A stretch of DNA of 64,000 nucleotides from Candidatus Levyibacteriota bacterium (GCA_016182185.1 JACOXU010000001.1:207251-271250); one strand, 5' to 3'; counted from the stretch's first letter, positions 1-59,325 are shown. The notes: generated by a model not told the origin, from the sequence alone. Made by a program: numbers and translations.

Positions 1-264
1 AAGAATTTCAGGAAGCACAACCTGTTCTTTAAGAGAATGCCAGAGGATATTTACCTTAACAATTTTAAATTTTAAATTTTTCCCCGCTTCGCCCAAGCTT
101 CGCGGGGCGAGAATTTTTAATTCAACCTGATCGTAATCTTGACGTCTTACAAACAGAATATACTGATTTTTTCGATCTACTTGCGCAAGCTGATCAATCA
201 AGTTACGGGTATATCTCCCAACTCCTGTCTGATTCCATAACCTGCAATCAATTCCAATTTTCAT
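1..264 (-). CDS. GT4-family glycosyltransferase, N-terminal part only; the gene runs off the left edge of the window
   Basis: Not in the ORF track because there is no stop in the window. A minus-strand ATG at 262-264 overlaps the stop of 261..1160 (ATGA). The open frame to position 1 reads MKIGIDCRLWNQTGVGRYTRNLIDQLAQVDRKNQYILFV..., the typical GT4 N-terminus. Confidence 0.55.
   Translation of the reverse strand, partial: MKIGIDCRLWNQTGVGRYTRNLIDQLAQVDRKNQYILFVRRQDYDQVELKILAPRSLGEAGKNLKFKIVKVNILWHSLKEQVVLPEIL
61..81. repeat. heptanucleotide tandem repeat (AATTTTA)x3 inside a coding sequence
   Basis: aatttta aatttta aattttt, encoding KNLKFKI on the minus strand. Confidence 0.7.
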
Positions 265-1160
265 TTTTGAATAGATGAAAGAGAAATCTTACGCTTAAAC
301 TCAATTACTGATAATATGAAGGAATTAAGAATTTTTGGGTATTTTTTTTCATAATGTTTTTTGTAAAAGATCCTCATAGCATTAAAACGAGCATTTGTCG
401 CTATCATTTTTGTTTGTAAATTTGCTGTAGATTTTCTTTCTGAATGTTTTTTGATTCCGCCTGAAATTCCTTTATGATGAAGTACGAAAACTTTTGGAAC
501 AAAATAAACTTTCCAGCCCTTCTCTTTAAGCCGGAAACAAAAATCTATGTCTTCTCCGTAAAAAAAATAATCCTCATCCCACCAATTTATCTCATCTCCT
601 GCTCTTCTTCTTACCATCATAAAAGCACCCACTACTGAATCGACTTCATGCTCAGTTGACAAATCAAGCCAGCCCATTGTATAGCCTGAAAATATTTTAC
701 TTTTTGGAAAAACTCTAGAAAAACCTGAAAAATAACAGAAAGAATTCCAGGGTGTAGGAAATCCCCGATGAGCCCCGTCATCAAGTTTCCCCGTTGGAAG
801 TCTTACAAAGCAGGTCGATACTCCTACATCGCTATGTTTATTCATAAAAGAAATCATATATGGCAATGTATTTTCATCAACCTGTGTATCTGGATTTAGA
901 AACAGAAGAAATTTTCCCTGTGATTTTCTGATGCCTATATTGTTTGCTTTTGAAAAACCAAAATTATCACTATTTTTTATTATGAAAACTTGTGGGAAAT
1001 GTTTTTTAACCTCTTCAACAGTACCGTCGGATGAAGCATTATCAACTAAAATAATCTCATAATTTCTTCTAGAAAGATCTGAGTTATAAATCGCGTCTAT
1101 GCATTGTTTTATGAATCCTTTTGTATTAAATGAGACAATAATTATTGAAAGCTCAATCAT
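261..1160 (-). CDS. GT2-family glycosyltransferase
   Basis: The N-terminus SIIIVSFNT...ILVDNASSDGT is typical of GT2, followed by the NPD/DxD region. It overlaps the next gene by 4 nt. Confidence 0.8.
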   Translation of the reverse strand: MIELSIIIVSFNTKGFIKQCIDAIYNSDLSRRNYEIILVDNASSDGTVEEVKKHFPQVFIIKNSDNFGFSKANNIGIRKSQGKFLLFLNPDTQVDENTLPYMISFMNKHSDVGVSTCFVRLPTGKLDDGAHRGFPTPWNSFCYFSGFSRVFPKSKIFSGYTMGWLDLSTEHEVDSVVGAFMMVRRRAGDEINWWDEDYFFYGEDIDFCFRLKEKGWKVYFVPKVFVLHHKGISGGIKKHSERKSTANLQTKMIATNARFNAMRIFYKKHYEKKYPKILNSFILSVIEFKRKISLSSIQK

Positions 1161-2353
1161 GATCTTAAAACGATCCTATATACATCTTCCAATTTCTTTG
1201 TAACCTTCTTCCAATCATATTTTTGCTCTACCAATTGCCTTGCATTTGCTGAAATCTTTTTATAAAACTCCTCATCGGTTACTAGTTTAATAATTTGATC
1301 TGCTATCTCTTTCTCGTTTTCTGAAACAATAATTTCTTTATCTTCAACTGCTCCGAGAGGGCCGGCTCCTAATCGGGTTGTAACAACAGGAACTCCTGAT
1401 GCCATTGCTTCAAGAATCTTATAACTTGACCCTCCACCGACTCTGATTGGCGAAAGTAAAAGGTCTACTTTCTGAAAGATAAGCGAAGTATCATCTGGAG
1501 CATTTTCATCGAAAAAAATATCACTACCGGCAAGTTTTTTTATATCATTATGAATATTTTTTCCAACTACCCACAATTTAACTTTTAATTTCTCACTTTT
1601 TACTTTTAACTTTATTGATGGCCAAATTTTCTCGATAATCCATTTTATTGCATCTCTATTCTGCACCCATTTAAAATCACCAATATATAGAATTGTTTTT
1701 TCGCCGCCAGTTTCTAAATCTGAACTTATGACTTTGAATTTTTCAAGGTCGACTCCGTTCGGGACAACTGCCGTATTCTCATTTTTTGGCTGCATCAAAT
1801 TTTTCTCTTCTTCTGAAACTGCTACGAGAAAATTTGCTTTTTCCCAGAATTTTTCTTCCTGTCTTTTTAACTTCAAGATATCAATATTTAATAATGGACG
1901 GGCGAAAAAAGGTGCCGTATTCGAATATCTTTTATAAACCATATATTCAATATTATGCTCAACTAAAACAATTGGAAGAGATGTCTCTGGTAAATTCTGC
2001 ATAATATAAGAGGTTTCAATATGGATCAAGTCAAATTTCTCTTTTTCTAAAAGATTTTTGATTTTTTGTTTCATTTCAGGACTGGTGTGTCCGGCAATAA
2101 GAAATGATGAAAAAGAAAAACCGGTCTTAAGAATATTATCTAATGACCACTGTTTTTTTCTTTTGACAGTAATCACTTCTTTACAAACATTAGTAACCTC
2201 ATCAACATCTTTTTGAGTCTGATAATCTCTTTTCTCACAAACTAGAGTAATTTGATGCGTTTTACTTAAATTTTTCAAAATATTATATAAGCGAATATGC
2301 CCGCCAGAAAAAAGAGGGTAGGGTAAGAACGACGAGACCATTAAAATCTTCAT
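1157..2353 (-). CDS. GT4-family glycosyltransferase
   Basis: Two-Rossmann GT4 layout with the C-terminal E(A)M..G.PVV motif (EAMASGVPVVTTRLGAGP). Confidence 0.8.
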   Translation of the reverse strand: MKILMVSSFLPYPLFSGGHIRLYNILKNLSKTHQITLVCEKRDYQTQKDVDEVTNVCKEVITVKRKKQWSLDNILKTGFSFSSFLIAGHTSPEMKQKIKNLLEKEKFDLIHIETSYIMQNLPETSLPIVLVEHNIEYMVYKRYSNTAPFFARPLLNIDILKLKRQEEKFWEKANFLVAVSEEEKNLMQPKNENTAVVPNGVDLEKFKVISSDLETGGEKTILYIGDFKWVQNRDAIKWIIEKIWPSIKLKVKSEKLKVKLWVVGKNIHNDIKKLAGSDIFFDENAPDDTSLIFQKVDLLLSPIRVGGGSSYKILEAMASGVPVVTTRLGAGPLGAVEDKEIIVSENEKEIADQIIKLVTDEEFYKKISANARQLVEQKYDWKKVTKKLEDVYRIVLRS

Positions 2354-3795: not shown

Positions 3796-3798
3796 ATA

Positions 3799-6700
3799 TC
3801 AAATATTTAGGGGAGTAATTTCTCCATGAATATTCTTAATCCACTCAACCAAAGTTCCATCCTCATTGAATTTGAACACTCTCCCGTTTGGTTCACTCAT
3901 TATAGCAAAAGCTTCATCCACTGATTTAACGATATTGACTTTTATATTTTTACCGGGAAAAAGAAGCCATGTCGCATCCTCAAGACCTACCGGGAAAATC
4001 CATGCCTCGCCTTCCCTAATTGGAACATCAACGAAATATAAAGTTGATGCCTCAGAAACACCATAATGAACGTAAGCATTTTCTAAAGATGAAAGAAAAC
4101 TTTTAGATTTTTGACCTGCTCTTTGCCAATCTGTTTGGGTTTTTTGAAACTGAAAAAGCTGAATTGATAAAAAAAATACTGCTATCAGTGCAAAAATAGA
4201 AATTGTAATTTGCCTATCTTTGACATAAAGAAACTTAAAAAGCTTTACGAGAAAGAATGAAAGAAGAAGAGATATTCCAAAAGAAGCAAGATAGCTGTAC
4301 CTTGATGTGATATTTCCTAGTCCTAAAAACGGTAGGAGAGACACAATAAAAAATAGAATCGAAAAGACTAAAATTCTTTTTTCATTATTTTCCAATTTTC
4401 TAAATAAAAATCTATAGAATAAAATAAATATTAATAATAAAACCACCAATGATAAAAAGGCAAATGGAATGTTCGCCCGTAAAAGTGACCTGAGTCCTTC
4501 ATAAAAATTTAAAGAAAAAGAACCAAAAAGTATAAGAATAAAATAGCCAAGAATATTACCAAAAAAATTAAAAGGAAGTTTCAGAAGATTATAATTATAG
4601 TCTCCGCTTAGCCAGTGACTTTGAGATAATAATCTTAGCAGTAAATAAGGTAAGACTGGGAAAAATAATATATAGTAATAAAGTTTGCTAAATAGAGATT
4701 TCAATATAATTTTTTCTTGAAAAATCAAATCATAAAAAATAATCAGTAGTGGAGCAATAATTCCCAGTTCATGAAAAAGTAAGCTTATTATGATTGATAC
4801 AAAAGAAAGAGCAAAATAAAATATTTTTTTATTTTCGCGCCACAAGATAAAAGACAATAACGCCAGGAGAATAAACGTAATGTTAAATAAATGTCCTGTT
4901 GCGGCAATCCAGAAAATCGCCTCTGTATATCCGCTTAGGAAAATAAAAATCAATACAGAAATTACAGACAAATAATAATTTTTAAATATTTTTCTTGAAA
5001 TCAGAAAAAAGAGAACTATATTCAGAAGATGAAGAACGATTGAGACAAAGTGGTAAACTGTTTGATTCAACCAGAATAAATTTTGCATTAAATAAAAATA
5101 AAGTTTTGTTCCCGGCCGGTAAAAAAACCCATTGGCTTTTGTGAAGTACTCGCTAACTATTGCAAGGGGGTTACAATTTATACAATCAGTAGCCCAACGA
5201 AGCCAAGTAAAATCGTCGCCAACGAAATAGTAACTTATGGCACCAGCAAATAATATAAATCCTGCCGTAATTAAGTAGATAATAAATGCATAGGGAGAAA
5301 TTAATATTTTTTTAATCTCACTAACTGTATCTATTTCTTTTTTCTTATAAAGAGCCAGACCTCCGATTACTATTCCCATAATAAGCCAATAAGAAAAAGC
5401 AATTTTTGATGCTTCAAAAACATCGATAAATATTGCGTTTAGGAAAAGACCTACGGATCCTGCAATAAATCCAATGATAAAACTTTTTACCGGCCCTGAA
5501 TCAATATCAGGCAAAATCTTCTTAATATATATGGCGGAAATTAGAAAAATTATTAGAAAAGAAAGAAAACCGATAAGACCTGATTCGCCCAATATTCTTA
5601 AATAATCATTGTCAACTGCAAGACTTACCGATCCATAGCCGCTTCCCAAAAAAATATTTCTTTTGAAGGCCGCAAGCGTATTGGGCCACTCGCCTTGAAA
5701 CCTAGTTGTAAATGAAATGTCATAAGCTTTGGCATTTTTTATAACGAAATCTCCGAAGACGGCTCGAATCTCTCCTTGTCCTTCAGGTTCTTTGTCGCTG
5801 GCTTTTTCAAAGAAATAAAGATGGGAAGTTTTGATAACGGGCGAGAGTGAAAGATTTATATAGCTTGATCCTTGAGGCAAGCTTTCTCCGTTTGGTTTAT
5901 TTGACTCTACAATTAATTGTGATTGAGGAGGTATTTTTTCAAATGGGAATACCGCAGAAGAAGTAGTATTTTTCTTATCAACTTCTGAGATTGGCTGAAT
6001 AAAAACGATTCTGTTTTTAAAATATGATGCTGGTACTTCCTTAATATGTCCGATTGCCTGTCCTGTTTTCGTATCTACCAAAACATCTACTTTCCCAACT
6101 GTGCTTGCAAAACGAGACAACAGGCTTGGAGCCAGTATTACAAAGACAGATATGAGTAAGATCAAAGAGATAACTGCCAGTTTTTTCTTTTGTATAATTA
6201 TTACGATTAAAAGGGCGATTAAAAGTACAGCAAAAGATATACGTGAAACAGTCATAAACATCAAAATAAAACCTAATGAAGCAGAAATTAGAAAAAAGAT
6301 CCGAAGCAATATTTTTTTAAAACCAAATATAGCGCTTACAATAATTGGAACAACAAGTACCAAATATGCTGCGAGATCATAGTGACCAGCAAAAGTTGAG
6401 GGCACACGACCAAGCGTTGAAATCCGAAGAGGAATACCCTTGGCGAACTCTTCATTTCCAGTAAGAAAGGCTGGAAACCCGAGGAATTTTTGACCAAACC
6501 CATATAATGAAGCAAGAATAACTATAATTCCTAGAAGTATAGGAATATATTGTAATAATTTCTTATCTCGCATTCCTGAAAAAGCTACAAAGAATAAAAA
6601 CATATACTCAATTCTCCGAATAAAGCTTAAAATTGCAACATTTGAAAAAACATTTGATAGTGTGGGAAAAAGAATTAATACTCCATGAAGAGTTGATATC

Positions 6701-6945: not shown

Positions 6946-6946
6946 A

Positions 6947-7822: not shown

Positions 7823-7823
7823 C

Positions 7824-8375
7824 TTATCTAAACCAAGCTGCTCTACCCAGTTTGTAATTTAACTCTTTGTTTCTTTTTCCGATTTCTTTGGCGGGAACTC
7901 CACCGACTATTGTGAACTCTTCGACATCCTTTGTAACCACAGCTCCAGCTCCCACGACTGCTCCCTTTTTAATCTTTACTCCAGGCAAAATAATTGTCCT
8001 AGGTCCTACGAAAACATAATCTTCTATAGTTACCGGTGCTGTTATAGCGTGAAAATCAACGCTTTGTACATCATGCTGGGCATTATAAATCATAACCTCC
8101 GAAGCAATATCAACATGATTTCCTATAATAAGAGCGTCTCTTCCATCCAGAACCGTGCCTTCTCCTATAATCGAATCTTCACCTATCTTTATATTCTTAG
8201 GGTCATAAAAAACTGCGCCCATGTGAACAGCTGACCCTTTTCCAATGCTTAATCCTGAAATTCTGTAGAAAAATCTTCTGACATGATGAGACGGAATAAA
8301 ACCTACAACTCGCAATATAAAATTAATAAGTTCCGTAAGTATCGTATATAATCTCTTGAAAATTTTTCCAATCAT
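7824..8375 (-). CDS. hexapeptide-repeat (left-handed beta-helix) sugar O-acetyltransferase
   Basis: Tandem [LIV]G..xx hexapeptide repeats (IGEDSIIGEGTVLDG...IGNHVDIASEVMI...VGPRTIILPGVKIKKGAVVGAGAVV). Confidence 0.75.
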   Translation of the reverse strand: MIGKIFKRLYTILTELINFILRVVGFIPSHHVRRFFYRISGLSIGKGSAVHMGAVFYDPKNIKIGEDSIIGEGTVLDGRDALIIGNHVDIASEVMIYNAQHDVQSVDFHAITAPVTIEDYVFVGPRTIILPGVKIKKGAVVGAGAVVTKDVEEFTIVGGVPAKEIGKRNKELNYKLGRAAWFR

Positions 8376-9499
8376 ATACTTTCAAGTGCCTTCAATGTTT
8401 CCCTTGCTGTTTTTTCCCAAGAGAATTTTTTGACTTGTTCATAGCCTTTCGTAGCTAGTTCTCTACGAAGATCTAAGTCCTCAATAATTTTTTTTAAATT
8501 TTTCGTAATCTCTTCCACATTTTCAGGATTAAAATAAATAGCCGCTTGTCCCCCTGCTTCAGGCAGACTTGAGATATTACTGGTCAAAACCGGACATCCA
8601 TATTTCATGGCCTCAAGAATTGGTAATCCGAATCCCTCATAAAGACTAGGCAATACAAAACAAATGGCATTTTTGTAAAAATTTGGAAGCTCATCATCCG
8701 GAATTTCATGTAAAAATTTAACTCTTTTTTCTACATCAAATTTTTCAGGGGCCACAAGAATTTCTTCCCACATCCAGCCCTTTCTGCCTACAATTACTAA
8801 TTCAACATCTGTCTTAAGCTTTGAAAAAGCTTCTATAAGTCTTACAATATTTTTCCTTGGCTGAATTGTACCGACAAATAAAATGTAAGGGTTATTAATT
8901 CCGTATTTTTTCTTTAAATCTTCCATATTTTGAGATTTGAGATTTGAGATTTGAGATTTTATACCCGGATATGTAACTATGATTTTTTCGCTGGGTATTT
9001 TATATAAATTGATTATATCATCTTTGGAAGCTTGGCTTATGGTAAAAATTCGCTTGGCTTTTTTGATGGAATACCTTCCCCAGTATTTAAGTTGAATAAA
9101 GTCTTTCCCTTTAAAAAGTTGAGGGAAATGTAGATAAGAAAGGTCTAAAATTGAAATTGCGGACGGGATAGACGTAAAAAGAGGAAGATAATGGGTGGGT
9201 GTAAAAAAAATATCAGGTTTTGAATTTCCCAATATTAGCTCAAAAGACAAACCAAACATTGTCCATAATTTCCGGGGTTTTACTATTTTATAATTCCAAT
9301 TTTCTGATTCTTGAGGCATATCTGAAGCAGGATTGTCTGGAATATAAATAATGTAGTTATTTTTTTTGTCAATTTCATTAAAATTCAAAAGAAGCTCGAA
9401 GCAGTATTGTCCGCTTCCAACTCTGTTTGGCAAACCTGTTTTTGGATCGTATCCGAATCTCGACACAACAGCTTCAAAACCATTTATTCCAATTGTCAT
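8372..9499 (-). CDS. GT4-family glycosyltransferase; its interdomain linker contains a heptanucleotide repeat
   Basis: GT4 N-domain (MTIGINGFE...) and C-domain (ILFVGTIQPRKN...EAMKYGCPVLTSN). The linker KSQISNLKSQN is encoded by (TTTGAGA)x4 at 8929-8956. Confidence 0.8.
   Translation of the reverse strand: MTIGINGFEAVVSRFGYDPKTGLPNRVGSGQYCFELLLNFNEIDKKNNYIIYIPDNPASDMPQESENWNYKIVKPRKLWTMFGLSFELILGNSKPDIFFTPTHYLPLFTSIPSAISILDLSYLHFPQLFKGKDFIQLKYWGRYSIKKAKRIFTISQASKDDIINLYKIPSEKIIVTYPGIKSQISNLKSQNMEDLKKKYGINNPYILFVGTIQPRKNIVRLIEAFSKLKTDVELVIVGRKGWMWEEILVAPEKFDVEKRVKFLHEIPDDELPNFYKNAICFVLPSLYEGFGLPILEAMKYGCPVLTSNISSLPEAGGQAAIYFNPENVEEITKNLKKIIEDLDLRRELATKGYEQVKKFSWEKTARETLKALESI
8929..8960. repeat. 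heptanucleotide tandem repeat (TTTGAGA)x4.4 inside a GT4 coding sequence
   Basis: tttgaga x4 followed by tttt. The 7-nt unit is not a multiple of 3. Confidence 0.85.
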
Positions 9500-9500
9500 A

Positions 9501-10040: not shown

Positions 10041-10065
10041 ATATTAATTCTAAGTCAACTCAAGG

Positions 10066-10941: not shown

Positions 10942-10942
10942 T

Positions 10943-11164: not shown

Positions 11165-11166
11165 TT

Positions 11167-12093: not shown

Positions 12094-12102
12094 ATGCCTA
12101 TT

Positions 12103-14166
12103 TTACCATTTTTTACTTATGTAGCCAAAAATAAGAAGACCTAGAACCAAAGAAACACTAATTAAACTTATCACAACTCCCCTATTGACCCAGTCTTGGG
12201 GGGTATAGTAGATCTCAAGCGTATAATCCCCGCCCTTGGGAAGAGTAAAGCTATTGAATAAATTACTATATTTATGGCTTTTTATACTAATCTCATTATT
12301 TCTTGCCACCCAATATTTATCAAAACTTTCAGAAAAAACAAGAACGTCGTTTTTCTGTGCATTTTTCACTGAAAGTTTATATTTCGTTGGATTAATAGAT
12401 TGAAAACTAATTTCTAAATTTTCCGACGGACTCCAAAAATGACCTCTTGGATCTAAGATTTCAAAAACTGTAATCTTCCCAAATCCCTTAACTTCCTTTA
12501 GCCAATTAATTTTTCTCACGTCTTCTATCGTTTTCAGATATAACGAATCAAAATATTTTCTGTCTTTTAAGAAAATCTCGTGTTGTGAATCAAAGGGGAC
12601 AATTACATATTTAACAGAAAGGTTTTGAAGCTCTACTTGTGATTTTTTATCATTCAGATATTTAACGACATCATAAGGATTATATTTATTTATAAATTCC
12701 TGGCCTGAAATTGAAGGATGAATATCTGATCGAAATCCAAATCTTTCATGTGTAGGGATCCAAAAAGTTCTGTAAAAAACTTTTTCTTTTGATAAGAAAT
12801 TTGCAAGTTTTACATATTCCTGAGGTAAACTTTGTTGCCTGAATGTTCCAGTCAACTCTCCAAAAAATGCAGGGCGGATTAAATACAATAGATATAAAGT
12901 TATAAATAACAAAAAAAAATTCTTTACATTTAGGATCTTGCCTTTGGTGGTTATTTGAAATTTGAAGTTAGAAATTTGAAATTTTAGCTGAGATTCCAGC
13001 AACTTATATAATTTCCAAATGCTAAATGGGATTAGTATTGAATATGAGAGAACAACTAGAAAATACCATTTAGTCGGATCTCTAAACATTACAAATCCCG
13101 GGATATGTTCAAAAAGCCATAAATATATTCCGCCAAATGGGTCATTTGCCCCTTTTGCCAAAAAGGAACCAATTAAGCCCAGGAATATAAAAAAAATTAT
13201 ATATTTTTTTTCATCTTGAGCTAATTTTTTGACAAAAAATAAACTTAAGTATGCAAGAATCGGTATTAGTAAAAACTCTGATTTCATAAAATAAACTTTA
13301 CCAAAAATATTTTCCGGCCAATATGGATGAAGCATTGATATTGTCTGTTCAAATTTTGCAAAACTAAGATATGGAACTATTTCCACCGATGAATAAGCCG
13401 GTCCAAGTTGTTGTATGGGATTTTGCTTAGTAACCAAAAGGGGAATAAGCCAAAAAGCATGAACCAAAAAAGCAATTACACCAGGAGGAACAAAAATAAC
13501 TATAAATTTCTTTATTAAGTCTATGCTATTCCTATTTGCGAGCTGAACAACTATGAAGTAAATCAATACAGAAACAATTGTCGCGTAAAATGCTCTAGGA
13601 TCAAATATTAATTGTAGGGCAATAATTAAACCGGTCAGTATTGATTTCTTAAGATCAAAGTGTTCTTCTTCAATAAGTTTTATGAAAATCCCCAAAACTA
13701 AAGGGGCGATTGCGTAGGCGATTGCAATTGCCATTTGCCCTCCCCCCACAATCATTAAAAGATATGTGTTAAAGATAAATACAAAAGGAGATAAAAAGGA
13801 AAGTTTATTCTTAGGCATCGTTATCTTAAACAAATACCAGGAGGATAAAAATGAAATCAGAATAAATGGCCAAAACCAAATTAATCTTTCTATAAATATC
13901 CATGGAAGATTAAAGTATCTGAATAACACAATCGTTGTGGTTGAAAAATAGGTATGAAGACCTAAAATAAAATTAATATTTATACCCGTATTGCTTAATA
14001 GATAACTCCATACATAGGGGAAGATGGTAAGGCTTTCTATTTGATTTTCAAATCTGAAATTCCAATCACCTGAGGAAATAACATCAAAAGAAAGCCAAGT
14101 TTTAAAAACGGCCAGAACGAGAAAAAAAATGAACAAATATGCAAGCTTTGTAATTATATTTTTCAA
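12103..14166 (-). CDS. large polytopic membrane protein, putative GT-C glycosyltransferase (687 aa) with an extracytoplasmic C-terminal domain
   Basis: At least 12 TM helices, an early-loop ISSGDW motif, a soluble roughly 250-aa C-terminal domain and a terminal TM anchor. It contains heptamer repeats at 12954-12987. Confidence 0.45.
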   Translation of the reverse strand: MKNIITKLAYLFIFFLVLAVFKTWLSFDVISSGDWNFRFENQIESLTIFPYVWSYLLSNTGININFILGLHTYFSTTTIVLFRYFNLPWIFIERLIWFWPFILISFLSSWYLFKITMPKNKLSFLSPFVFIFNTYLLMIVGGGQMAIAIAYAIAPLVLGIFIKLIEEEHFDLKKSILTGLIIALQLIFDPRAFYATIVSVLIYFIVVQLANRNSIDLIKKFIVIFVPPGVIAFLVHAFWLIPLLVTKQNPIQQLGPAYSSVEIVPYLSFAKFEQTISMLHPYWPENIFGKVYFMKSEFLLIPILAYLSLFFVKKLAQDEKKYIIFFIFLGLIGSFLAKGANDPFGGIYLWLFEHIPGFVMFRDPTKWYFLVVLSYSILIPFSIWKLYKLLESQLKFQISNFKFQITTKGKILNVKNFFLLFITLYLLYLIRPAFFGELTGTFRQQSLPQEYVKLANFLSKEKVFYRTFWIPTHERFGFRSDIHPSISGQEFINKYNPYDVVKYLNDKKSQVELQNLSVKYVIVPFDSQHEIFLKDRKYFDSLYLKTIEDVRKINWLKEVKGFGKITVFEILDPRGHFWSPSENLEISFQSINPTKYKLSVKNAQKNDVLVFSESFDKYWVARNNEISIKSHKYSNLFNSFTLPKGGDYTLEIYYTPQDWVNRGVVISLISVSLVLGLLIFGYISKKW
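12954..12987. repeat. imperfect heptanucleotide repeat (TTTGAAA-like)x4.7 inside the coding sequence of 12103..14166
   Basis: tttgaaa tttgaag ttagaaa tttgaaa ttttag, encoding KFQISNFKFQI. Confidence 0.7.
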
Positions 14167-14172
14167 TCTAGC

Positions 14173-26750: not shown

Positions 26751-27470
26751 TTAAAAATATCCTAAAGCCCGAAGTCTTTTCATGATTACTTCTCTATCCT
26801 TTGCTCGTCCAGACCTTTCATCTCCCCCAGACTTTGCTGGTTTTGTAAATTCTTTCTCGCCCAGAGACCTGTACCCCAAATCGTATAATGAGATGTAGGG
26901 AACATTTTTACTATGAATGTACTCCCATATATCTTCTTCTGTCCAATGAAGAAGCGGGTGAATCCGGATATGATCTTCTCGCTTGGAAAAATATTTCTCA
27001 TCTATTCTTTCCTTATGCTCGTCCCATCGAATTCCAATAACAAGAGCGGGCAGTTTGTGTTCTTTTACCGCCTGTTTTAGAAGAATAATTTTCATCATAC
27101 TTGCAAAGGTTACCCTATCCCTTTTTGTTTTTTGTTTTTTATACTCGGATGCTAATTTTTTCGAGGGCTTTATAGTAATTAGGTTAAGATTCCACATTCT
27201 GTTTGTCCTTTCTATAAAATTGTAAACCTCCTCAAAATCTAATCCCGTATCCAGAAATAAAACAGGAAATTTTGCTTTTGCTCCAAACATTTCTCGAATT
27301 AAATGAAGTAGGACCGTGGAGTCCTTACCTCCTGTCCAGAATATTGCCATCTGCTCCCCATGCGCTTTAAACGCTTCATTTAATTTCTCTCTACTTTTAG
27401 CAATCTTTTTACTAAGAGAGGTGATTAATTTTTTTTTCATTTTTTTATTTTTATTTTTATTTAATTTCAT
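26751..27470 (-). CDS. CysD-like PP-loop ATP pyrophosphatase (PAPS reductase/sulfate adenylyltransferase subunit 2 family)
   Basis: WTGGKDSTVLLHL is the SGGKDS PP-loop. LFLDTGLDFEEVY matches the CysD HVDTGWKF region. The C-terminus ERSGRAKDREVIMKRLRALGYF resembles the E. coli CysD C-terminus (ERQGRVIDRD...KKRQGYF). Confidence 0.55.
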   Translation of the reverse strand: MKLNKNKNKKMKKKLITSLSKKIAKSREKLNEAFKAHGEQMAIFWTGGKDSTVLLHLIREMFGAKAKFPVLFLDTGLDFEEVYNFIERTNRMWNLNLITIKPSKKLASEYKKQKTKRDRVTFASMMKIILLKQAVKEHKLPALVIGIRWDEHKERIDEKYFSKREDHIRIHPLLHWTEEDIWEYIHSKNVPYISLYDLGYRSLGEKEFTKPAKSGGDERSGRAKDREVIMKRLRALGYF

Positions 27471-28846: not shown

Positions 28847-28895
28847 AACTCGATCCATTCTTCTAAGTCACCGCTTTCAAACAGTTAAGGAATTT

Positions 28896-46237: not shown

Positions 46238-47143
46238 CTATCTTTTTTTAAAATAGTCTACCGTTTGTCTAAGTCCCTCTCCTATAGTTGTCTTTGGTTG
46301 CCAATTAAGTAGCTTTGACGCTTTATGAATATCTAGTAACCATTCATCCGCTTCCCCCAATCTTTCCGGAATTTGTCCGTAGAAAACCTTAGATTTGCTT
46401 TTTGCGAAAGATAGTATAAGATCTACTATTTTACGTAGAGAATAACTTCTACCGCCGCTAATATTTATTATATTTACACCATTGTTAAATGTTGCTTCTT
46501 TAATTCTAATAAGTGCCTCAACAACGTCATCTATAAAAACATAGTCTCTTTTTTTTAGCCCTGAATTTAGGTCAATTTGTTTATTATTTATTGCCCGGAC
46601 AATAATCTGTGGTATTAATCTATGTATTCTATCGCCTGGCCCATACATAGTTCCTATTCGTGCAATAATTAATTGAAATTTAAATTCTTTTGCATAAATC
46701 ATGCACAATCTTTCGGCCGCCAGTTTAGAAATTGAGTATCCTGAGGGAGGATCCACTTTTGATTCTTCAGTGTAAGGAATATTGCTGTTTCCATATATTT
46801 CTTCTGTACTGATGAAAACAAATTTTTTTGGTGGATAATCTCTTAGAGATTCTAAAAGATTGAGAGTTCCTATCGTATTTATCTCAAGACAATTTTTGTA
46901 TACCTCATAATCCCTTGAAAGATTAACTAAACCCCCTATGTGGTAGATAACTGATGATCTTGCCCTGCTTATTGTTTCTTTTACCTCCTCAGGAAACAAA
47001 AAATTCATCTTTTGAATTTTTAGATTCTTATTTTCGCCTGAAGCAGTCGCAAAAACGTCTACTTTTTGTTTTGAAAGATACGCCAAGAAGCGTCTTCCTA
47101 AAAAACTTGTAGCGCCTGTCATCAATATTGTATCTTTTATCAT
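46238..47143 (-). CDS. NAD-dependent epimerase/dehydratase (SDR)
   Basis: The start was moved to the internal ATG at 47141-47143 (MIKDTILMTGATSFLGRRF), which forms an ATGA overlap with the upstream gene. STEEIYG and YSISK (YxxxK) are present. Confidence 0.65.
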   Translation of the reverse strand: MIKDTILMTGATSFLGRRFLAYLSKQKVDVFATASGENKNLKIQKMNFLFPEEVKETISRARSSVIYHIGGLVNLSRDYEVYKNCLEINTIGTLNLLESLRDYPPKKFVFISTEEIYGNSNIPYTEESKVDPPSGYSISKLAAERLCMIYAKEFKFQLIIARIGTMYGPGDRIHRLIPQIIVRAINNKQIDLNSGLKKRDYVFIDDVVEALIRIKEATFNNGVNIINISGGRSYSLRKIVDLILSFAKSKSKVFYGQIPERLGEADEWLLDIHKASKLLNWQPKTTIGEGLRQTVDYFKKR

Positions 47144-50157: not shown

Positions 50158-50237
50158 GTTTTTTGCATAAACCGTTTACTTCTTTATAGAAACACCTGCG
50201 GTTTTTTAAGTGTTGTCAGCCCTTTAATATCCCAGTG

Positions 50238-51537: not shown

Positions 51538-51581
51538 TGATAAATGATATCAAATATTAATTGTTATTCCAACTACGTGCT

Positions 51582-52901: not shown

Positions 52902-52902
52902 A

Positions 52903-54033: not shown

Positions 54034-55066
54034 TCGTTTCTTTAGCTGTTTTTTGCCAGGAAAATTTTTTGGACTGAATTGATCCTTTTTCTGAAAGTTC
54101 TTTCTGTAAATTTGTATTCGAAAAAACCTCTTCAATTCCCTCTCTAATACTATTGGCATCATAGGGATCAACATAGAAAACAGCATCTTCTGCAACTTCG
54201 GGAATTGATCCCTCTCTTGAGGTTACTACCGGACAACCGCAAGACATTGCCTCAAGAATCGGCAGTCCAAATCCCTCATACAAGCTCGGCATTGCAAAAA
54301 CTGATGCGTAATTATAAAGAGAAACTAAATCTTTTTGATCCACAAATCCAAGCCTAATAAATCTGCCATCATTTCTAATCATTTCTTGAATTTTTCTAAG
54401 ATCCTGATTCCATGGATTATCAATGTCGTAATCTTTAGATATTAAAGCTTCTCCAATCATTACGATCTTAAGGTTCGTTTTTTTAATCGCTTCGATTAAC
54501 CGAGGTAAATTCTTATTCCATGTCACATCACCTACATAAAGAACAAAACTTTCCGGCAGGCTGTATTTCTTTCTCAAATTCTGAATTTTGAATTCTGAAT
54601 TTTGAATTCTTTTGAATTCTTCTCCCGCAGCTAAATATACAACACTAATTTTATTTTCATCAATTCCGGCGAATTTGCTTATATCTCTCTTTGATGACTC
54701 AGAATCTGTAATAATAGTTTCTACCTTATTCAGCGCTTTTTTTTGTATTTGCCACCTCAATTCTCCTTTTATGCCTCTTGGAAAATAATTGGGAAAAACA
54801 AGAGGAGTTAAATCATGAACAGTGACAATTGTCTTAAATTTTTTAAAAAAGGGCAGCGTCAAAAAAAAGGGTTCAAAATAAGGGTAGTGGACTAAATCTA
54901 GTTTTTGGAGTAATTTTTCTCCTCGAGTAAAAAAAATATACTTATTTTCTGGATAGTACTTCAATAGAGCCTTTTTAAGATTTTTTAAATAAAAGCCCGT
55001 ACCCCTAACTCTGTGCTGTAAATAATTTTTCTTTTCCAATGGAGAGATATCGATACCAATTATCAT
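53999..55066 (-). CDS. GT4-family glycosyltransferase; its interdomain linker contains a heptamer/14-mer repeat
   Basis: MIIGIDISPL...EAMSCGCPVVTSREGSIPE. The linker EEFKRIQNSEFKIQNLRKK is encoded by (AATTCTGAATTTTG)x2 and related copies at 54577-54620. Confidence 0.8.
   Translation of the reverse strand: MIIGIDISPLEKKNYLQHRVRGTGFYLKNLKKALLKYYPENKYIFFTRGEKLLQKLDLVHYPYFEPFFLTLPFFKKFKTIVTVHDLTPLVFPNYFPRGIKGELRWQIQKKALNKVETIITDSESSKRDISKFAGIDENKISVVYLAAGEEFKRIQNSEFKIQNLRKKYSLPESFVLYVGDVTWNKNLPRLIEAIKKTNLKIVMIGEALISKDYDIDNPWNQDLRKIQEMIRNDGRFIRLGFVDQKDLVSLYNYASVFAMPSLYEGFGLPILEAMSCGCPVVTSREGSIPEVAEDAVFYVDPYDANSIREGIEEVFSNTNLQKELSEKGSIQSKKFSWQKTAKETNAVYEEVIKGQ
54577..54620. repeat. 14-nt tandem repeat (AATTCTGAATTTTG)x2 plus degenerate copies inside a GT4 coding sequence
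   Basis: Two exact 14-mers at 54577-54604, followed by aattcttttg aattcttc. Confidence 0.8.
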
Positions 55067-56697: not shown

Positions 56698-57809
56698 AGA
56701 ATTTTTTTGGAATAAAAGAAAATTAGTAAGATTAACGATGGGAAAAATAGAAATAATGTTTTTAATACTGGTGTTATCTCAAAATGAGTTCCTAAAAACA
56801 TAAAAGGTATATAACGCAAGAGAAGACCGAAAGATAAAGATATAGATAAATAAAAAATGATCTTTTTTTCAGGAATCAAAGCTGTAAACACTAAGAACCA
56901 TATTGCATACCACGGATATATCTCCTCCCTTAACGGGGACAGAAGAAAAATTAGAAACATTGATATTGCTGAAAAATAAATAAATTTTTCAATGTTTAAA
57001 TTTTTATTCTTAATTATTTGAAAGATTCCATAAAAATAAATTGGAATTAAAAATAATGTAGAATATTTTATCAGTACTGAAAGTATTATTGTTAATAAAC
57101 CACTCCAAATTTTTTTCTTTATTAGGAAAAACAATGAAGCAATTGCCAAAAACATCATCACAGTATCATTATGTCCTGAAACCATTGTTTCAATTATAAC
57201 TAGAGGATTTAAGCCAAAAATTATTAATGATATATTTTTTTTTGAAATTTTCCAAATGAAATATAAAGTCCCTATGTAAAAAAGAATATTTAAAAATTTA
57301 AAGCTAAATAGAATTATAAGAAAATTTCCAAAACCCAAGGAAAATGGTATTACGGACAGCAAAATCCAAAATGGTCCATAAAGAGCAATCTTATTTGCGG
57401 CATGTGTAAAAGACAAAAGTGGATCATTTATAAATTCAATTGGCATAATAATATAGGGGTTTTCATGATAAAAGAAAGCAACCTTGGCTGTTGAAATATA
57501 ATTAAAAATATCATATGAAAGCATTGCTGGATATGAAAAAAGTAAGGAAAGAGTTGTAATTGTTATTAAAACTACTACTCCCCTTTTGTTAAGTAACTTA
57601 TTCCTTCCAAACTGAATAAATGATATATAAAATATAAAAAAAATGATGATACCTATTAGATATATTACTGTTGTGATTTCTCTATTATTAAATGCAAAAC
57701 CTGTATACAAATTACTTAAATATATTAAGTTAGGATCTACAAATAGATATGAAAATATGCTAAACGACAGTAGAAAGAGTCCGTATAAAATGAGGAATAA
57801 TTTTTTCAT
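56679..57809 (-). CDS. polytopic membrane protein, putative GT-C glycosyltransferase (376 aa)
   Basis: At least 10 TM helices and no soluble domain. Hypothetical. Confidence 0.35.
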   Translation of the reverse strand: MKKLFLILYGLFLLSFSIFSYLFVDPNLIYLSNLYTGFAFNNREITTVIYLIGIIIFFIFYISFIQFGRNKLLNKRGVVVLITITTLSLLFSYPAMLSYDIFNYISTAKVAFFYHENPYIIMPIEFINDPLLSFTHAANKIALYGPFWILLSVIPFSLGFGNFLIILFSFKFLNILFYIGTLYFIWKISKKNISLIIFGLNPLVIIETMVSGHNDTVMMFLAIASLFFLIKKKIWSGLLTIILSVLIKYSTLFLIPIYFYGIFQIIKNKNLNIEKFIYFSAISMFLIFLLSPLREEIYPWYAIWFLVFTALIPEKKIIFYLSISLSFGLLLRYIPFMFLGTHFEITPVLKTLFLFFPSLILLIFFYSKKILWSRNI

Positions 57810-58333
57810 AAATTTTTCCTTCGAATAGATATAGACATTTCTATATCTTTCTTAAGATAGATTTTGGTTGAAAAAGATTTCTCCGGCCTCCAATAAACTT
57901 TTTCCGGAATTCCTTCTCTCAACATCAATAACGCTTCTATATGCTTTAGGCTCGCCTCTTTTAATAATGTCCGTTTTGAATCAATGCTCTCTTTATTAGC
58001 TTTCGAATTGTCAAGATTTGATCGAATATTATAAAAATATTCGTCAGATTTTTTTAGCGCTTTTTGCCCTAATAAAAACTGGTCATATTCAAAAAGCGTT
58101 TTTGCTTCAACTAGATATTTATCTGCTTGTTTAAGATTATAATTAAACTGCCCAAATTTACCAAAATACCAGTATTTTAAGATTTTATCCTTAATAAGAT
58201 TGATTTTGTAAAAAGGGCTTCCTGGCATAAATGATGGGTATGGAAGTACATAAGAAGATTGAGCAAAAATTGGACTATAGAAAAAAAATAAAAACATGAT
58301 AGAAAGGAGAAAAGATCGAAGAATCCACCTCAT
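57806..58333 (-). CDS. small secreted protein, paralog B of 28304..28846 (LPYPxxxPxxPxYK motif)
   Basis: Signal peptide (MRWILRSFLLSIMFLFFFYSPIFAQS), then YVLPYPSFMPGSPFYKINLIKDKIL. Its start codon sits inside the (TTTTGAA)x4 repeat. Confidence 0.55.
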   Translation of the reverse strand: MRWILRSFLLSIMFLFFFYSPIFAQSSYVLPYPSFMPGSPFYKINLIKDKILKYWYFGKFGQFNYNLKQADKYLVEAKTLFEYDQFLLGQKALKKSDEYFYNIRSNLDNSKANKESIDSKRTLLKEASLKHIEALLMLREGIPEKVYWRPEKSFSTKIYLKKDIEMSISIRRKNL

Positions 58334-59325
58334 TTTGAATTTTGAATTTTGAATTTTGAATTATTTTTGCGCCATTCCCATGCGGTTTTAACAATTGTTT
58401 CAAGATCAGAATATTTTGGCTCAAACCCCAATTCCTTTTTAATCTTTGTCGGATCCGCAATTAAAACATCTACATCCCCTGATCTTCTTGAGGAGTTTTT
58501 TACCTTAAAATCAATTCCTGATATTTTTTTTACCATTTCAAGTACTTCTTTATTTGAATATCCTTTTCCGGTTCCAACGTTGTAATAGTAATCATCTGGA
58601 TTTTCTTTTAGTTTTTGAAGCGTTAAAAGATGAGATTCAACTAAATCAATCACATGAATATAATCCCTAATACATGTTCCATCAGGGGTATCATAATCAT
58701 TTCCAAAAAGACTAAATTCGGAGTTTCCTAAGGTTGCTTTAATTGCTAGAGGAATTATATGAGTTTCAGGATCATGATCTTCTCCCATATTTCCATCAAG
58801 AGAGGCGCCAGCTGCATTAAAATAGCGAAGACTTGCAAAGCTCAATCCAAAGATTTTATTATACCAAGCAAGAATTTTCTCAACCATTAATTTACTTTCT
58901 CCATAAGGGTTAGTGGGAAGAGTCTGGTGATCCTCAGATATAGGAGTTTTAATTGGATTCCCATAAACTCCGGCCGTAGAAGAAAAAACTAAAGATTTAA
59001 TATTGTGCCTTACAGCTTGCTCGATCAAATTAAGAGATCCAAGAGTATTGTTTTGAAAATACAATTTGGGATTTTCCATAGATTCTGCCATAGATATATA
59101 TCCTGCGAAATGGATCACGGCATCGAACTTATCGGTGGAAAATGTATTTTCTAGTATTTCAGGATTTAAAAGGTCTCCTTGAACAAACTTTGCTTTCGTA
59201 TCAATAGCTTCTCTTTGACCGCGCTCCAAACTATCAAGCACAACCACATCATCTCCATTTTTTAGAAGTCGCTTAACCATAAAGCTTCCAATATAACCTG
59301 CCCCACCCGTAACCAAGATTTTCAT
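58330..59325 (-). CDS. galE: UDP-glucose 4-epimerase
   Basis: MKILVTGGAGYIGSFMVKRL...AVIHFAGY...FSSTAGVYG...YGESK matches GalE throughout. The C-terminus NNSKFKIQNSK is encoded by a heptamer repeat. Confidence 0.8.
   Translation of the reverse strand: MKILVTGGAGYIGSFMVKRLLKNGDDVVVLDSLERGQREAIDTKAKFVQGDLLNPEILENTFSTDKFDAVIHFAGYISMAESMENPKLYFQNNTLGSLNLIEQAVRHNIKSLVFSSTAGVYGNPIKTPISEDHQTLPTNPYGESKLMVEKILAWYNKIFGLSFASLRYFNAAGASLDGNMGEDHDPETHIIPLAIKATLGNSEFSLFGNDYDTPDGTCIRDYIHVIDLVESHLLTLQKLKENPDDYYYNVGTGKGYSNKEVLEMVKKISGIDFKVKNSSRRSGDVDVLIADPTKIKKELGFEPKYSDLETIVKTAWEWRKNNSKFKIQNSK
58333..58362. repeat. heptanucleotide tandem repeat (TTTTGAA)x4 spanning the galE stop codon and the next gene's start
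   Basis: Four exact copies at 58333-58360. It encodes the GalE C-terminus KFKIQNSK-stop and overlaps the ATG of 57806..58333. Confidence 0.85.

What the first reader, a model, noticed from the sequence alone, without database searches (positions are those of the whole stretch)
61..58362. A recurring family of A/T-rich heptanucleotide tandem repeats embedded in coding sequences of glycan genes
Arrays of 3 to 5 copies of related 7-nt units sit inside ORFs at six places. They are AATTTTA at 61-81, TTTGAGA at 8929-8960, TTTGAAA-like at 12954-12987, a weaker instance near 47007-47035, AATTCTG/AATTTTG at 54577-54620 and TTTTGAA at 58333-58362. All are on the coding strand and translate to similar K-F/S-K/Q-I-Q/S-N peptides (KFKIQN, KSQISN, KFQISN, EFKIQN, NLKIQK). 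A 7-nt unit is not a multiple of 3, so gain or loss of one copy by slipped-strand mispairing would shift the frame. This is the classic contingency-locus mechanism, but with an unusual heptamer unit and a shared consensus across several genes. Alternatively it could be a conserved DNA-level signal, such as a binding site or recombination hotspot, carried inside the CDS.
Basis: seen in the sequence. Interest (0 to 1): 0.6.

Follow-up and report, generated by a model that had tools for sequence, protein, structure and literature searches.

The report
In-frame heptanucleotide microsatellites in coding genes
The 7-base tandem repeats are real and far from chance, but they look like tolerated in-frame slippage products in flexible protein loops, of a kind also found in essential housekeeping genes of many bacteria, rather than on/off switches special to sugar-coat genes.

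Summary
Five of the six reported arrays are real. The site at 47007-47035 is not a tandem array. In this Candidatus Levybacteria (CPR) glycan locus, period 7/14 is the only enriched repeat period: 4 perfect period-7 runs against 0.19 expected.

All arrays lie A-rich on the coding (minus) strand and in frame. They sit at permissive sites: two GT4 interdomain linkers (low-confidence coil in an AlphaFold model), a loop between hydrophobic segments, and the extreme C-terminus of GalE.

The contingency-locus reading is not supported.
- Tracts are short, 2.9-4.9 units.
- They are not near the 5' ends of genes.
- Identical arrays occur in frame in LeuRS, SecA, TopA, GatB, MiaA and ribosomal protein L18 in metagenome contigs.
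- Heptamers are already reported as the commonest long-SSR class in prokaryotes.

Slippage dynamics are supported. Orthologous sites carry arrays with different units and lengths. Units evolve in concert (AAATTCA versus GAGTTCA at the GalE tail). One frameshifted GT4 homolog exists.

One observation remains unexplained. The 33-nt GalE-tail array overlaps the next gene's ATG and is identical in three species whose GalE third codon positions are only 40-54% identical. No read-level data were available to test copy-number heterogeneity.

The parts
8929..8959 (-). Perfect (AAATCTC) x4.4 array on the coding strand. It encodes KSQISNLKSQ in the interdomain linker of GT4 glycosyltransferase 8372-9499, directly before Met193.
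   Evidence: Pfam places the N-domain at 75-180 and the C-domain at 193-354. In the AlphaFold model, residues 181-190 are the only low-confidence coil, with block pLDDT 58.
58332..58362 (-). Perfect (AAAATTC) x4.4 array. It encodes the last 10 residues (NSKFKIQNSK) of GalE 58330-59325. The TGA stop overlaps the ATG (ATGA) of the downstream DUF5667-like gene 57806-58333.
   Evidence: The same 33 nt are present in L211 and L212, whose GalE is 64-65% identical. L213 has the same architecture with unit GAGTTCA.
54577..54621 (-). (AAAATTC/AGAATTC) array of about 5 units, perfect as a 14-mer x2.4. It encodes EFKRIQNSEFKIQN in the linker of GT4 glycosyltransferase 53999-55066.
   Evidence: Pfam places the domains at 39-144 and 165-328. 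Logan contig L001 is identical here.
12953..12984 (-). Imperfect (AAATTTC) x4.6 array at 84% matches. It encodes LKFQISNFKFQI in a hydrophilic loop between two hydrophobic segments of the 687-aa membrane protein 12103-14166, which has no Pfam hit.
61..80 (-). (AAAATTT) x2.9 array. It encodes NLKFKIV in the N-terminal domain loop of a GT4 gene that runs off the window (1-264). This unit contains TAA in one frame, and the array stops before that frame would be read.
   Evidence: The orthologous loop in L008 (20355-20386) carries (AAAATTC) x4.6.
82..107 (.). GC-rich hairpin CCCCGC...GCGGGG inserted in frame (APRSLGEAG) next to the 61-80 array. It is a separate class of insertion, not part of the heptamer arrays.
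   Evidence: Comparable hairpins interrupt the linker array in orthologs L087 and L086. Hairpins accompany only 3 of 55 arrays elsewhere.
59778..59815 (-). Perfect 14-nt (2 x 7) tandem repeat x2.7 (AGTCAGTCATCAAT). It encodes SVINSQSSIVSH in a variable loop of GT2 59322-60104.
   Evidence: The loop varies in the L211 and L212 orthologs.
27122..27140 (-). (AAAAAAC) x2.7 array inside the PAPS-reductase-domain protein 26751-27470.
1577..1613 (-). Degenerate period-7 array (5.3 copies, 76% matches) inside GT4 gene 1157-2353. It looks like a decayed member.
47007..47035 (-). It is not a tandem array. It is an A/T-rich imperfect inverted repeat.
   Evidence: no TRF row; I22.

Best explanation
These are coding heptanucleotide microsatellites.

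Origin and filtering. Replication slippage at short A/T-rich direct repeats 7 nt apart generates tandem 7-nt units. Prokaryotic slippage is reported to favour this unit length. Selection then keeps only arrays that meet four conditions. They add a multiple of 3 nt, typically one original unit plus three new ones (about 4.4 copies, or 7 extra codons). They are free of stop codons in all three frames on the coding strand. They encode hydrophilic K/N/Q/S-rich peptides. They fall in places where a protein tolerates an insertion, such as interdomain linkers, surface loops, loops between membrane segments and C-terminal tails.

Why the units look alike. The apparent shared consensus (A3-4, T1-3, C) is mostly the outcome of those filters in an AT-rich genome. 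It is not a common signal.

Later history. Once present, arrays persist at the same site for long evolutionary times. They keep being homogenised, expanded, contracted, mutated and occasionally interrupted by GC-rich hairpins.

What is shown and what is inferred. Shown: the arrays, their frame, their positions, the lineage-wide period-7 bias, their presence in housekeeping genes, their turnover and concerted evolution among orthologs. Inferred: slippage as the generating mechanism, near-neutrality of the encoded peptides, and the way three units are gained without a lethal frameshifted intermediate.
For: Non-random period-7/14 bias:
- In the window.
- In 176 kb of related Levybacteria loci: 11 period-7 runs against 0-1 for each other period tested (period 14: one).
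- In array-bearing metagenome contigs: about 17 per 100 kb against 4 or fewer for other periods.

Position and strand:
- All arrays are on the coding strand and in frame, at relative positions from 0.13 to 0.98.
- The GT4 arrays fall between the Pfam domains.
- They coincide with the only low-pLDDT coil of an otherwise confident model, with mean pLDDT 89.5.

Variation among orthologs:
- In 120 GT4 orthologs the same linker is hypervariable, with protein lengths of 369-408 aa, and is often heptamer-derived.
- The DNA shows (AAAACTC AAAATTC)n in L010 and degenerate versions in L008, L009 and L087.

Not glycan-specific:
- The same arrays lie in frame in essential genes.
- Orthologous LeuRS and MiaA sites are shared by species about 50% identical.

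Frame and stop filters:
- In-ORF perfect runs peak at 23-25 nt, which is 21 plus a few nt of microhomology.
- Every array of at least 3 copies uses a unit that is stop-free in all frames. The one unit that is not (AAAATTT) stops at 2.9 copies.
- 0 of 132 arrays lie in an antisense ORF.

Concerted evolution:
- The GalE tail has unit AAATTCA in the window, L211 and L212, and GAGTTCA in all units of L213.

Literature:
- Heptanucleotides are reported as the most abundant long-SSR class. A polymerase-contact-length explanation has been proposed (PMC4679880, PMC4692102).
Against: - The 33-nt GalE-tail array is identical in three species. Their GalE genes are 66-77% identical at nucleotide level and 40-54% at third positions. 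It is the only fully conserved 33-nt window of the gene. Pure neutrality does not predict this.
- Gaining three units in one essential gene (LeuRS, SecA) cannot proceed by single-unit steps without lethal intermediates. A multi-unit event has to be assumed.
- About 6 of 34 low-GC host proteins were glycan enzymes, judged from the domain counts. Some enrichment in glycan genes therefore cannot be excluded.
- No read-level data were examined.
Confidence: 0.68

Rival explanations
1. Contingency loci. Single-unit slippage switches glycosyltransferases off, or switches a fused GT-B enzyme to a split two-ORF form. This would diversify the surface glycan of an episymbiotic CPR bacterium.
For: - A 7-nt unit shifts the frame, and +/-1 unit truncates GT4a, GT4b and the GT2 right after the N-terminal part.
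- Units evolve in concert, so slippage happens on evolutionary time scales.
- One homolog, P0292, carries an array 'EELRIKNEK' in the linker and then reads the conserved C-domain start in the +2 frame. Alignment scores are 40-78 in that frame against 12-22 in the other frames.
- A related MAG (L061) has two GT4 genes split at exactly this linker with overlapping stop and start codons, so split forms are viable.
- Logan contig L209, found in 3 samples, ends inside the 8929-8959 array.
Against: - Tracts have only 3-5 units, against 6-38 units in described heptanucleotide phase-variable tracts.
- They are not near the 5' ends of their genes.
- All window arrays are in frame.
- The GalE array cannot switch GalE off, because it affects only the tail.
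- Identical arrays occur in essential genes, where switching would be lethal.
- All Logan contigs that cover arrays are 100% identical to the window.
- The contig break can be explained by array k-mers shared with other loci in the metagenome.
- The P0292 frameshift could equally be an A5 homopolymer sequencing error.
Confidence: 0.12
2. A functional cis-element. The arrays, or at least the one at the GalE junction, would act at the DNA or RNA level. One possibility is an unstructured A-rich translation-initiation or coupling region for the downstream gene. Another is a row of binding sites for a protein that recognises single-stranded heptamers.
For: - 33 of 33 nt are identical across three species at the GalE/next-gene junction, while third-position identity in the rest of the gene is 0.40-0.54.
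- The ATGA stop/start overlap is conserved even where the unit has changed (L213).
- Many metagenome arrays sit immediately upstream of long ORFs.
- Intergenic TAACTGA heptamer repeats upstream of start codons have been proposed to act in translational regulation, and CspB binds one protein per heptamer (PMC4679880).
Against: - Unit sequence differs among clades at the same site: AAAATTC, AAATCTC, AAAAATG-like and GAGTTCA.
- Unit sequence also differs among sites.
- Most arrays are in the interior of proteins, with no downstream start codon.
- GalE tails vary from 2 to 22 residues among 120 orthologs.
- No binding factor or structure is indicated.
Confidence: 0.13
3. Pre-formed cassettes or footprints of a very small mobile element. 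Arrays of about 21 nt, and the GC-rich hairpins, would be inserted by an enzyme-driven process rather than by local slippage.
For: - Near-identical arrays of about 31 nt occur in unrelated genes and in contigs with 24-67% GC.
- There is a preferred size of about 4.4 units.
- GC-rich hairpins are inserted, and even nested, inside arrays.
- A preference for four units is also reported for an unrelated heptamer family (PMC4692102).
Against: - The size preference follows from the frame constraint.
- Units at a site change in concert, as expected from local slippage.
- Array ends show the 2-5 nt of extra periodicity expected from microhomology-mediated duplication.
- No transposase or terminal structure is associated with the arrays.
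- Hairpins accompany only 3 of 55 arrays.
- The scan searched for this pattern specifically, so finding it widely does not show that it is preferred.
Confidence: 0.05

Closest known systems
Long simple sequence repeats with heptanucleotide units in prokaryotic genomes (Mrazek, Guo and Shah 2007, as summarised in PMC4679880 and PMC4692102)
   Same: Both are tandem head-to-tail 7-nt units that are over-represented relative to other unit lengths. A replication-slippage origin has been proposed. The phylogenetic distribution is scattered.
   Different: Those repeats are described as mostly intergenic, with non-triplet units rare in coding regions. Here the arrays are inside compactly packed genes, in frame. 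They have a preferred size of about 4.4 units and persist at orthologous protein sites.
Heptanucleotide phase-variable SSRs of Haemophilus influenzae: the hmw1A/hmw2A promoter (TGAAAGA)13-38, intragenic (AATTTTG)14 in hmw1A, and (AACAACC)1-13 (PMC2651432)
   Same: The unit is 7 nt, and one unit (AATTTTG) is the same word as in the 54577 array. Intragenic copies shift the frame. The associated genes have surface-related functions.
   Different: Those tracts are much longer and vary between strains, including out-of-frame alleles. They are confined to contingency genes. Here the tracts have 3-5 units, no variation was observed, and the same arrays occur in essential genes.
Named heptamer repeat families: cyanobacterial STRR, TAACTGA repeats of Beggiatoaceae, cyanobacteria and Bacteroidetes (PMC4679880), and GGGNATC repeats of Xanthomonas and Nostoc (PMC4692102)
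   Same: All are tandem heptamers dispersed through a genome. Occasional copies lie inside ORFs, translated in the stop-free orientation as 7-aa periodic peptides. A preference for about four units is reported for GGGNATC.
   Different: The unit sequences differ. Those families are mainly intergenic and each is dominated by one unit per genome. Here units are diverse and coding. G-quadruplex formation, the explanation offered for four GGGNATC units, is impossible for these A/T-rich units.
Low-complexity in-frame insertions in housekeeping proteins of AT-rich genomes, for example Asn/Lys-rich inserts in Plasmodium falciparum (from my own knowledge, not checked here)
   Same: Both are slippage-derived hydrophilic inserts in surface loops and linkers of otherwise conserved enzymes. 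They vary between orthologs and are apparently tolerated rather than required.
   Different: Those inserts are based on triplet or homopolymer-codon repeats and can be very long. Here the DNA unit is 7 nt, so the peptide period is 7 aa and length changes are restricted to steps of three units.

Membership tests
SSR contingency locus (phase variation by slipped-strand mispairing) | Tandem repeat with a unit that is not a multiple of 3, inside the coding sequence (or in the promoter) | tested here: met
   7-nt and 14-nt units lie inside the CDS.
SSR contingency locus (phase variation by slipped-strand mispairing) | Tract long enough for high slippage rates. Described heptanucleotide tracts have 6-38 units. 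| tested here: not met
   The window tracts have 2.9-4.9 units. The comparison values come from PMC2651432.
SSR contingency locus (phase variation by slipped-strand mispairing) | Copy-number polymorphism among strains or reads, including out-of-frame alleles | tested here: inconclusive
   Logan contigs from the samples queried are 100% identical to the window wherever they cover an array. Contig L209 ends inside the 8929 array. One frameshifted homolog (P0292) exists in a distant relative. No reads were available.
SSR contingency locus (phase variation by slipped-strand mispairing) | Repeat placed near the 5' end, so that a frameshift abolishes the product | tested here: not met
   Relative positions in the window are 0.37-0.97. 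At GalE only the last 10 residues change.
SSR contingency locus (phase variation by slipped-strand mispairing) | Confined to surface, antigen or restriction-modification genes and absent from housekeeping genes | tested here: not met
   The same arrays occur in LeuRS, SecA, TopA, GatB, MiaA, Mur ligases, L18, HisRS and TsaD in metagenome contigs. This could not be tested in this genome outside the window.
Heptanucleotide long SSRs of prokaryotes | Head-to-tail 7-nt copies longer than chance expectation | tested here: met
   Runs reach 24 nt against a maximum of 14 in shuffles.
Heptanucleotide long SSRs of prokaryotes | Period 7 over-represented relative to other unit lengths in the genome or lineage | tested here: met
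Heptanucleotide long SSRs of prokaryotes | Predominantly intergenic location, as reported in the literature | tested here: not met
   All window arrays and all arrays in related loci are inside ORFs. 80 of 132 metagenome arrays lie in sense ORFs of at least 80 aa.
STRR / TAACTGA / GGGNATC heptamer families | The family-specific unit sequence | tested here: not met
   The units here are AAATCTC, AAAATTC, AAATTTC, AAAATTT and AAAAAAC.
Tolerated low-complexity in-frame insertion (coding microsatellite) | In frame, in a loop, linker or terminus, and variable in length among orthologs | tested here: met
   Pfam domain boundaries, the AlphaFold coil at 181-191, the ortholog alignment and the GalE tails.

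The most novel reading that the evidence does not exclude
The arrays may be more than tolerated junk. In CPR bacteria and several other phyla, heptanucleotide arrays could be long-lived, concertedly evolving elements kept at fixed protein sites and gene junctions because they do something.

One possibility is that they act as single-unit slippage switches. These would toggle GT-B glycosyltransferases between fused, split and off states, so that a tiny-genome episymbiont could vary its surface glycan.

Another possibility is that they act as rows of heptamer binding sites, or as coupling leaders that set translation of the downstream reading frame. The nucleotide-perfect GalE/next-gene junction array would be the clearest case.
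Probability: 0.15. Interest if true: 0.7.

Novelty: new member of a known kind. Interest (0 to 1): 0.38.

Why it matters
The finding is mainly a caution. A non-triplet repeat inside a glycan gene is not by itself a phase-variation switch.

In this lineage, and in many metagenome contigs, 7-nt arrays are a general mutational product. They survive wherever a protein tolerates seven extra hydrophilic residues, including in essential enzymes.

Three points are worth recording for people who study microsatellite evolution or CPR genomes.
- The in-ORF size preference of one unit plus three.
- Persistence and concerted evolution of arrays at orthologous sites across deep divergence.
- The perfectly conserved array at the GalE/next-gene junction.

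These raise a concrete, testable question: how do three units get added to an essential gene at once? They also offer a set of natural markers for permissive insertion sites in conserved enzymes.

Tried and rejected
1. Site 47007-47035 as an array. Rejected: TRF gives no signal and the region is palindrome-like.
2. GC-rich hairpins as an integral part of the arrays, in the manner of a MITE or terminator-like element. Hairpins flank or interrupt arrays at window 82-107 and in L086 and L087, but they accompany only 3 of 55 arrays elsewhere. I treat them as a separate insertion class that shares the same permissive sites.
3. Base composition alone as the explanation for the shared consensus. The observed units rank only 21st to 211th among 1608 stop-free cyclic heptamers under a base-composition model. 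The stop-free filter, a hydrophilic-peptide filter and shared ancestry are also needed.
4. Strain-level variation.
   - Exact-protein look-ups gave only contigs 100% identical to the window.
   - 90% cluster members differed outside the linker or were contig-end partials.
   - P0134 ends at a chimeric contig end.
   - Contig breaks at or near arrays are ambiguous, because array k-mers recur across a metagenome.
5. Strict three-unit quantisation of GalE tails. This holds only in part. The classes 'xxNSK' and 'xxNSKFKIQNSK' differ by 7 aa, but tails of 2-22 aa exist.
6. A frameshift survey of metagenome arrays. No clear split gene was found among 55 low-GC arrays. The arrays with differing upstream and downstream frames sit at gene junctions or 5' ends.
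7. The source genome outside the window could not be reached. The exact proteins P0001 and P0152 are listed from an NCBI 617-kb contig, but that contig is not in the contig index.
8. The paper by Mrazek et al. 2007 is not held in the library. It is cited only through two papers that summarise it.
9. AAATTTC also fits the X XXY YYZ pattern of -1 ribosomal frameshift sites. I did not pursue this, because the other units do not fit that pattern.

Full report
**What is in the sequence**

The window has 33% GC and is packed with genes on the minus strand. Exact-match proteins place it in a Candidatus Levybacteria (CPR/Patescibacteria) MAG, on a 617-kb contig. Every ORF that I scanned against Pfam and that matched a family encodes a sugar- or glycan-pathway protein or a closely associated one; a few large ORFs matched nothing. 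The list includes many GT2 and GT4 transferases, GT-C-type membrane transferases (PMT_2, AftD-like; the YfhO/PTPS-like and MptA_B assignments come from the precomputed Pfam hits), epimerases, DegT aminotransferases, the rhamnose pathway and a flippase.

- 61-80, x2.9, perfect
- 8929-8959, x4.4, perfect
- 12953-12984, x4.6, 84% matches
- 54577-54610, x4.9 as a 7-mer, or a perfect 14-mer x2.4
- 58332-58362, x4.4, perfect

Nothing periodic is found at 47007-47035, which is an A/T-rich imperfect palindrome.

The signal is far above chance and is specific to period 7 and its double. Perfect runs exist for period 7 (four) and period 14 (two), against 0-1 for every other period from 2 to 24. In 100 dinucleotide-preserving shuffles the mean number of period-7 runs of at least 10 is 0.19. 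The longest shuffled run is 14, against 24 observed. The degenerate family pattern hits 11 times at six loci, all on the minus strand, against 0.18 expected.

**Where the arrays sit**

On the coding strand the units are AAATCTC, AAAATTC, AAATTTC, AAAATTT and AGAATTC. Three 7-nt units make 21 nt, so an array is read in all three phases and gives a 7-aa periodic peptide (KSQISNL, KFKIQNS, KFQISNF).
- In the two GT4 enzymes the array falls exactly between the Pfam N- and C-domain matches. These are 75-180 and 193-354 in one enzyme, and 39-144 and 165-328 in the other.
- An AlphaFold model of GT4 8372-9499 has mean pLDDT 89.5. Its only poorly defined stretch is residues 181-190, the array peptide. 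This is a coil between strand 173-175 and helix 192-199.
- In the 687-aa membrane protein the array lies in a hydrophilic stretch between two hydrophobic segments.
- In GalE the array forms the last ten residues, beyond the fold. The TGA stop overlaps the ATG of the next gene.

These are all places where proteins tolerate insertions.

**The period-7 bias is not special to this locus or to glycan genes**

In 176 kb of related Levybacteria loci there are 11 perfect period-7 runs, one at period 14 (twice 7) and 0-1 at each other period tested. All are inside ORFs on the coding strand, at relative positions from 0.13 to 0.98. The non-CPR loci fetched by the same search, mostly Chloroflexota, show 36 period-7 runs against 16 for period 3.

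Of 132 arrays, 80 lie in sense ORFs of at least 80 aa and none in antisense ORFs.

The host proteins are mostly housekeeping enzymes.
- In the low-GC set: LeuRS (three), MiaA (two), Mur ligases (two), topoisomerase I, SecA, GatB, thymidylate synthase, Sua5 and ribosomal protein L18. These sit alongside two GT2, two GT4, an epimerase and a DegT.
- In the higher-GC set: UvrD-like helicases, ABC ATPases, oxoprolinase, LeuRS, HisRS, MiaA, TsaD and a protein with Mfd/TRCF-type domains (CarD_TRCF_RID, UvrB_inter).

In those contigs, further heptamer arrays with many different units run at about 17 per 100 kb, against 4 or fewer for any other period. The window has about 6 per 100 kb. One reservation applies: it comes from other genomes, because the rest of this genome could not be reached.

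The literature already reports heptanucleotides as the most abundant class of long simple sequence repeats in most prokaryotic genomes. A proposed link is to the length of DNA in contact with the polymerase (Mrazek et al. 2007, as summarised in PMC4679880 and PMC4692102). A 7-nt unit is therefore not unusual.

**Evolutionary behaviour**

GT4 linker. The 120 closest orthologs of GT4 8372-9499 are 61-71% identical and range from 369 to 408 aa. Almost all of that length variation lies in this one linker. Many carry heptamer-derived peptides such as SEIRNPKSETNSKFKMQNSK. DNA from relatives shows (AAAACTC AAAATTC)2.4 in L010, degenerate arrays in L008 and L009, and arrays interrupted by a GC-rich hairpin (L087) or a nested hairpin (L086).

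GalE tail. The tails of 120 orthologs range from 2 to 22 residues and are mostly heptamer-derived. Examples are NSK, NSKFKI, KLKMKNEK, NSKFKIQNSK and ISNLKSQISK.
- Three species have exactly the same 33 nt, AATTCAAAATTCAAAATTCAAAATTCAAAATGA. Their GalE genes are 66-77% identical at nucleotide level and 40-54% at third codon positions. This is the only fully conserved 33-nt window of the gene.
- A fourth species, L213, has the same architecture and the same ATGA overlap. Its unit is GAGTTCA in place of AAATTCA: position 1 is A to G in all four full units and position 3 in three of them, and two units carry one further substitution each.

That pattern is concerted evolution. The arrays are kept homogeneous by recurrent slippage or conversion while their length is held.

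Other genes. Orthologous arrays with the same unit also occur in LeuRS of species about 50% identical, at two different sites. In MiaA they occur at one site with different units.

Array length. Inside ORFs the perfect run length peaks at 23-25 nt. That equals 21 nt plus a few bases of boundary microhomology, or one original unit plus three added. This is the smallest frame-preserving gain.

**Is it a switch?**

Arguments for:
- Simulated +/-1 unit truncates the transferases just after the N-domain.
- One distant homolog, P0292, has an N-domain, a linker array, and then the conserved C-domain start read in the +2 frame. Alignment scores are 40-78 in that frame against 12-22 in the others.
- A related MAG has two GT4 genes cleanly split at this linker with overlapping stop and start codons, so a split enzyme seems viable.

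Arguments against:
- The tracts have 3-5 units. Described heptanucleotide phase-variable tracts have 6-38 units.
- They are not near the 5' ends of their genes.
- All are in frame.
- The GalE array cannot inactivate GalE.
- The same arrays sit in genes where switching off would be lethal.

Direct evidence is lacking. Logan contigs from the samples queried are 100% identical to the window wherever they cover an array. One contig, seen in three samples, ends inside the 8929 array. That has a trivial alternative explanation, since array 31-mers are shared with other loci in a metagenome. The P0292 frameshift could be an A5 homopolymer error.

**Why the units look alike**

An array of three or more units is read in all three frames, so its unit must be free of TAA, TAG and TGA cyclically. 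Every array of at least 3 copies obeys this. AAAATTT does not, and its array stops at 2.9 copies.

In an AT-rich genome a run of A has to be preceded by C. It cannot be preceded by T, which would create TAA. It cannot be preceded by TG, which would create TGA. The peptide also has to be hydrophilic. Together these rules give A3-4 T1-3 C. Composition alone does not single these units out, since they rank 21st to 211th of 1608. Related loci use many other units. I therefore read the 'family' as a filter effect plus shared ancestry, not as a common signal.

**Conclusion**

The arrays are real coding heptanucleotide microsatellites. They are generated by a slippage process with a known bias for 7-nt units. 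They are filtered by reading frame, stop codons and protein tolerance, and they are long-lived and homogenised at permissive sites. My confidence in this reading is about 0.68.

I give the contingency reading about 0.12. I give a functional cis-element, mainly for the GalE junction, about 0.13. I give a mobile or cassette origin about 0.05.

This is a new member of a known kind. Two things remain unexplained:
- the nucleotide-perfect conservation of the GalE junction array;
- how three units are gained at once in essential genes.

**Limits**

No reads were available. This genome outside the window could not be reached. Mrazek et al. 2007 was read only through secondary citations.

Noticed in passing
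window 82-107 (also L087 1287-1322 and L086, inside the GT4 linker): GC-rich hairpins are inserted in frame in coding sequence of a 33% GC genome. In the window the insert encodes APRSLGEAG and folds at -17 kcal/mol. In ortholog L087 a 36-nt hairpin (z = -4.3 on the sense strand, using G-U pairs) interrupts the heptamer array. L086 has a second hairpin nested in its loop. Similar GC-coded peptides appear in GT4 and GalE tails of other relatives (P0136, P0228, P0261).
   Followed up: partly
window 9501-10040, minus strand: A stand-alone 179-aa ORF matches only the GT4 N-terminal domain (Glyco_transf_4). It sits directly upstream of the full-length GT4 8372-9499. The same arrangement is conserved in relatives: L086 4469-4999, L087 145-678 and L088 2463-2996.
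   Followed up: no
L061 2087-3141 and 11445-12369: In a related MAG (49% GC), two GT4 genes are each split at the interdomain linker into an N-domain ORF and a C-domain ORF. Stop and start codons overlap (ATGA in one case, and an ATG 8 nt before the TAA in the other). This suggests that split GT-B enzymes are viable.
   Followed up: partly
P0292 (ENA metagenome protein, 211 aa): This GT4 homolog has a tail after the linker array (EELRIKNEK) that is the +2-frame translation of the conserved C-domain start. It is either a natural frameshifted or split allele, or a homopolymer sequencing error.
   Followed up: partly
window 58330-58362, L211 3962-3996, L212 3963-3996, L213 about 990-1024: The GalE stop overlaps the start of a signal-peptide protein (DUF5667-like) as ATGA in all four species. 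The 33 nt before it are identical in three of them, although third codon positions in the rest of the gene are only 40-54% identical between them. Adding one unit would fuse GalE in frame to the downstream protein, giving 508 aa.
   Followed up: partly
window 1-64000: The whole 64-kb window is one almost uninterrupted glycan-biosynthesis locus, nearly all on one strand. It has more than 10 GT2, at least 6 GT4 and several GT-C membrane transferases, plus two large proteins without Pfam hits (1048 aa at 3799-6945 and 672 aa at 28581-30599). This is more than a tenth of a 617-kb contig of a CPR genome.
   Followed up: partly
L126 42-582 (metagenome contig, 53% GC): Four (AAATCTC) x4.3 arrays recur about 168-175 nt apart inside a larger tandem repeat. 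The first three lie in one open frame as near-identical peptide repeats, and the fourth falls in an overlapping ORF. Heptamer arrays can therefore be carried inside higher-order repeats.
   Followed up: no
L209 position 1 = window 8956; L004 end = window 59746: A Logan contig found in three samples starts inside the 8929-8959 array. Another contig ends 32 nt past the 14-nt repeat at 59778-59815. Possible causes are copy-number heterogeneity or array k-mers shared with other loci in the metagenome.
   Followed up: partly
metagenome loci L089-L208: Arrays inside ORFs favour about 4.4 units. [quoted passage not shown] A/T-rich arrays cannot form quadruplexes, so the four-unit preference may have a more general cause.
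   Followed up: no
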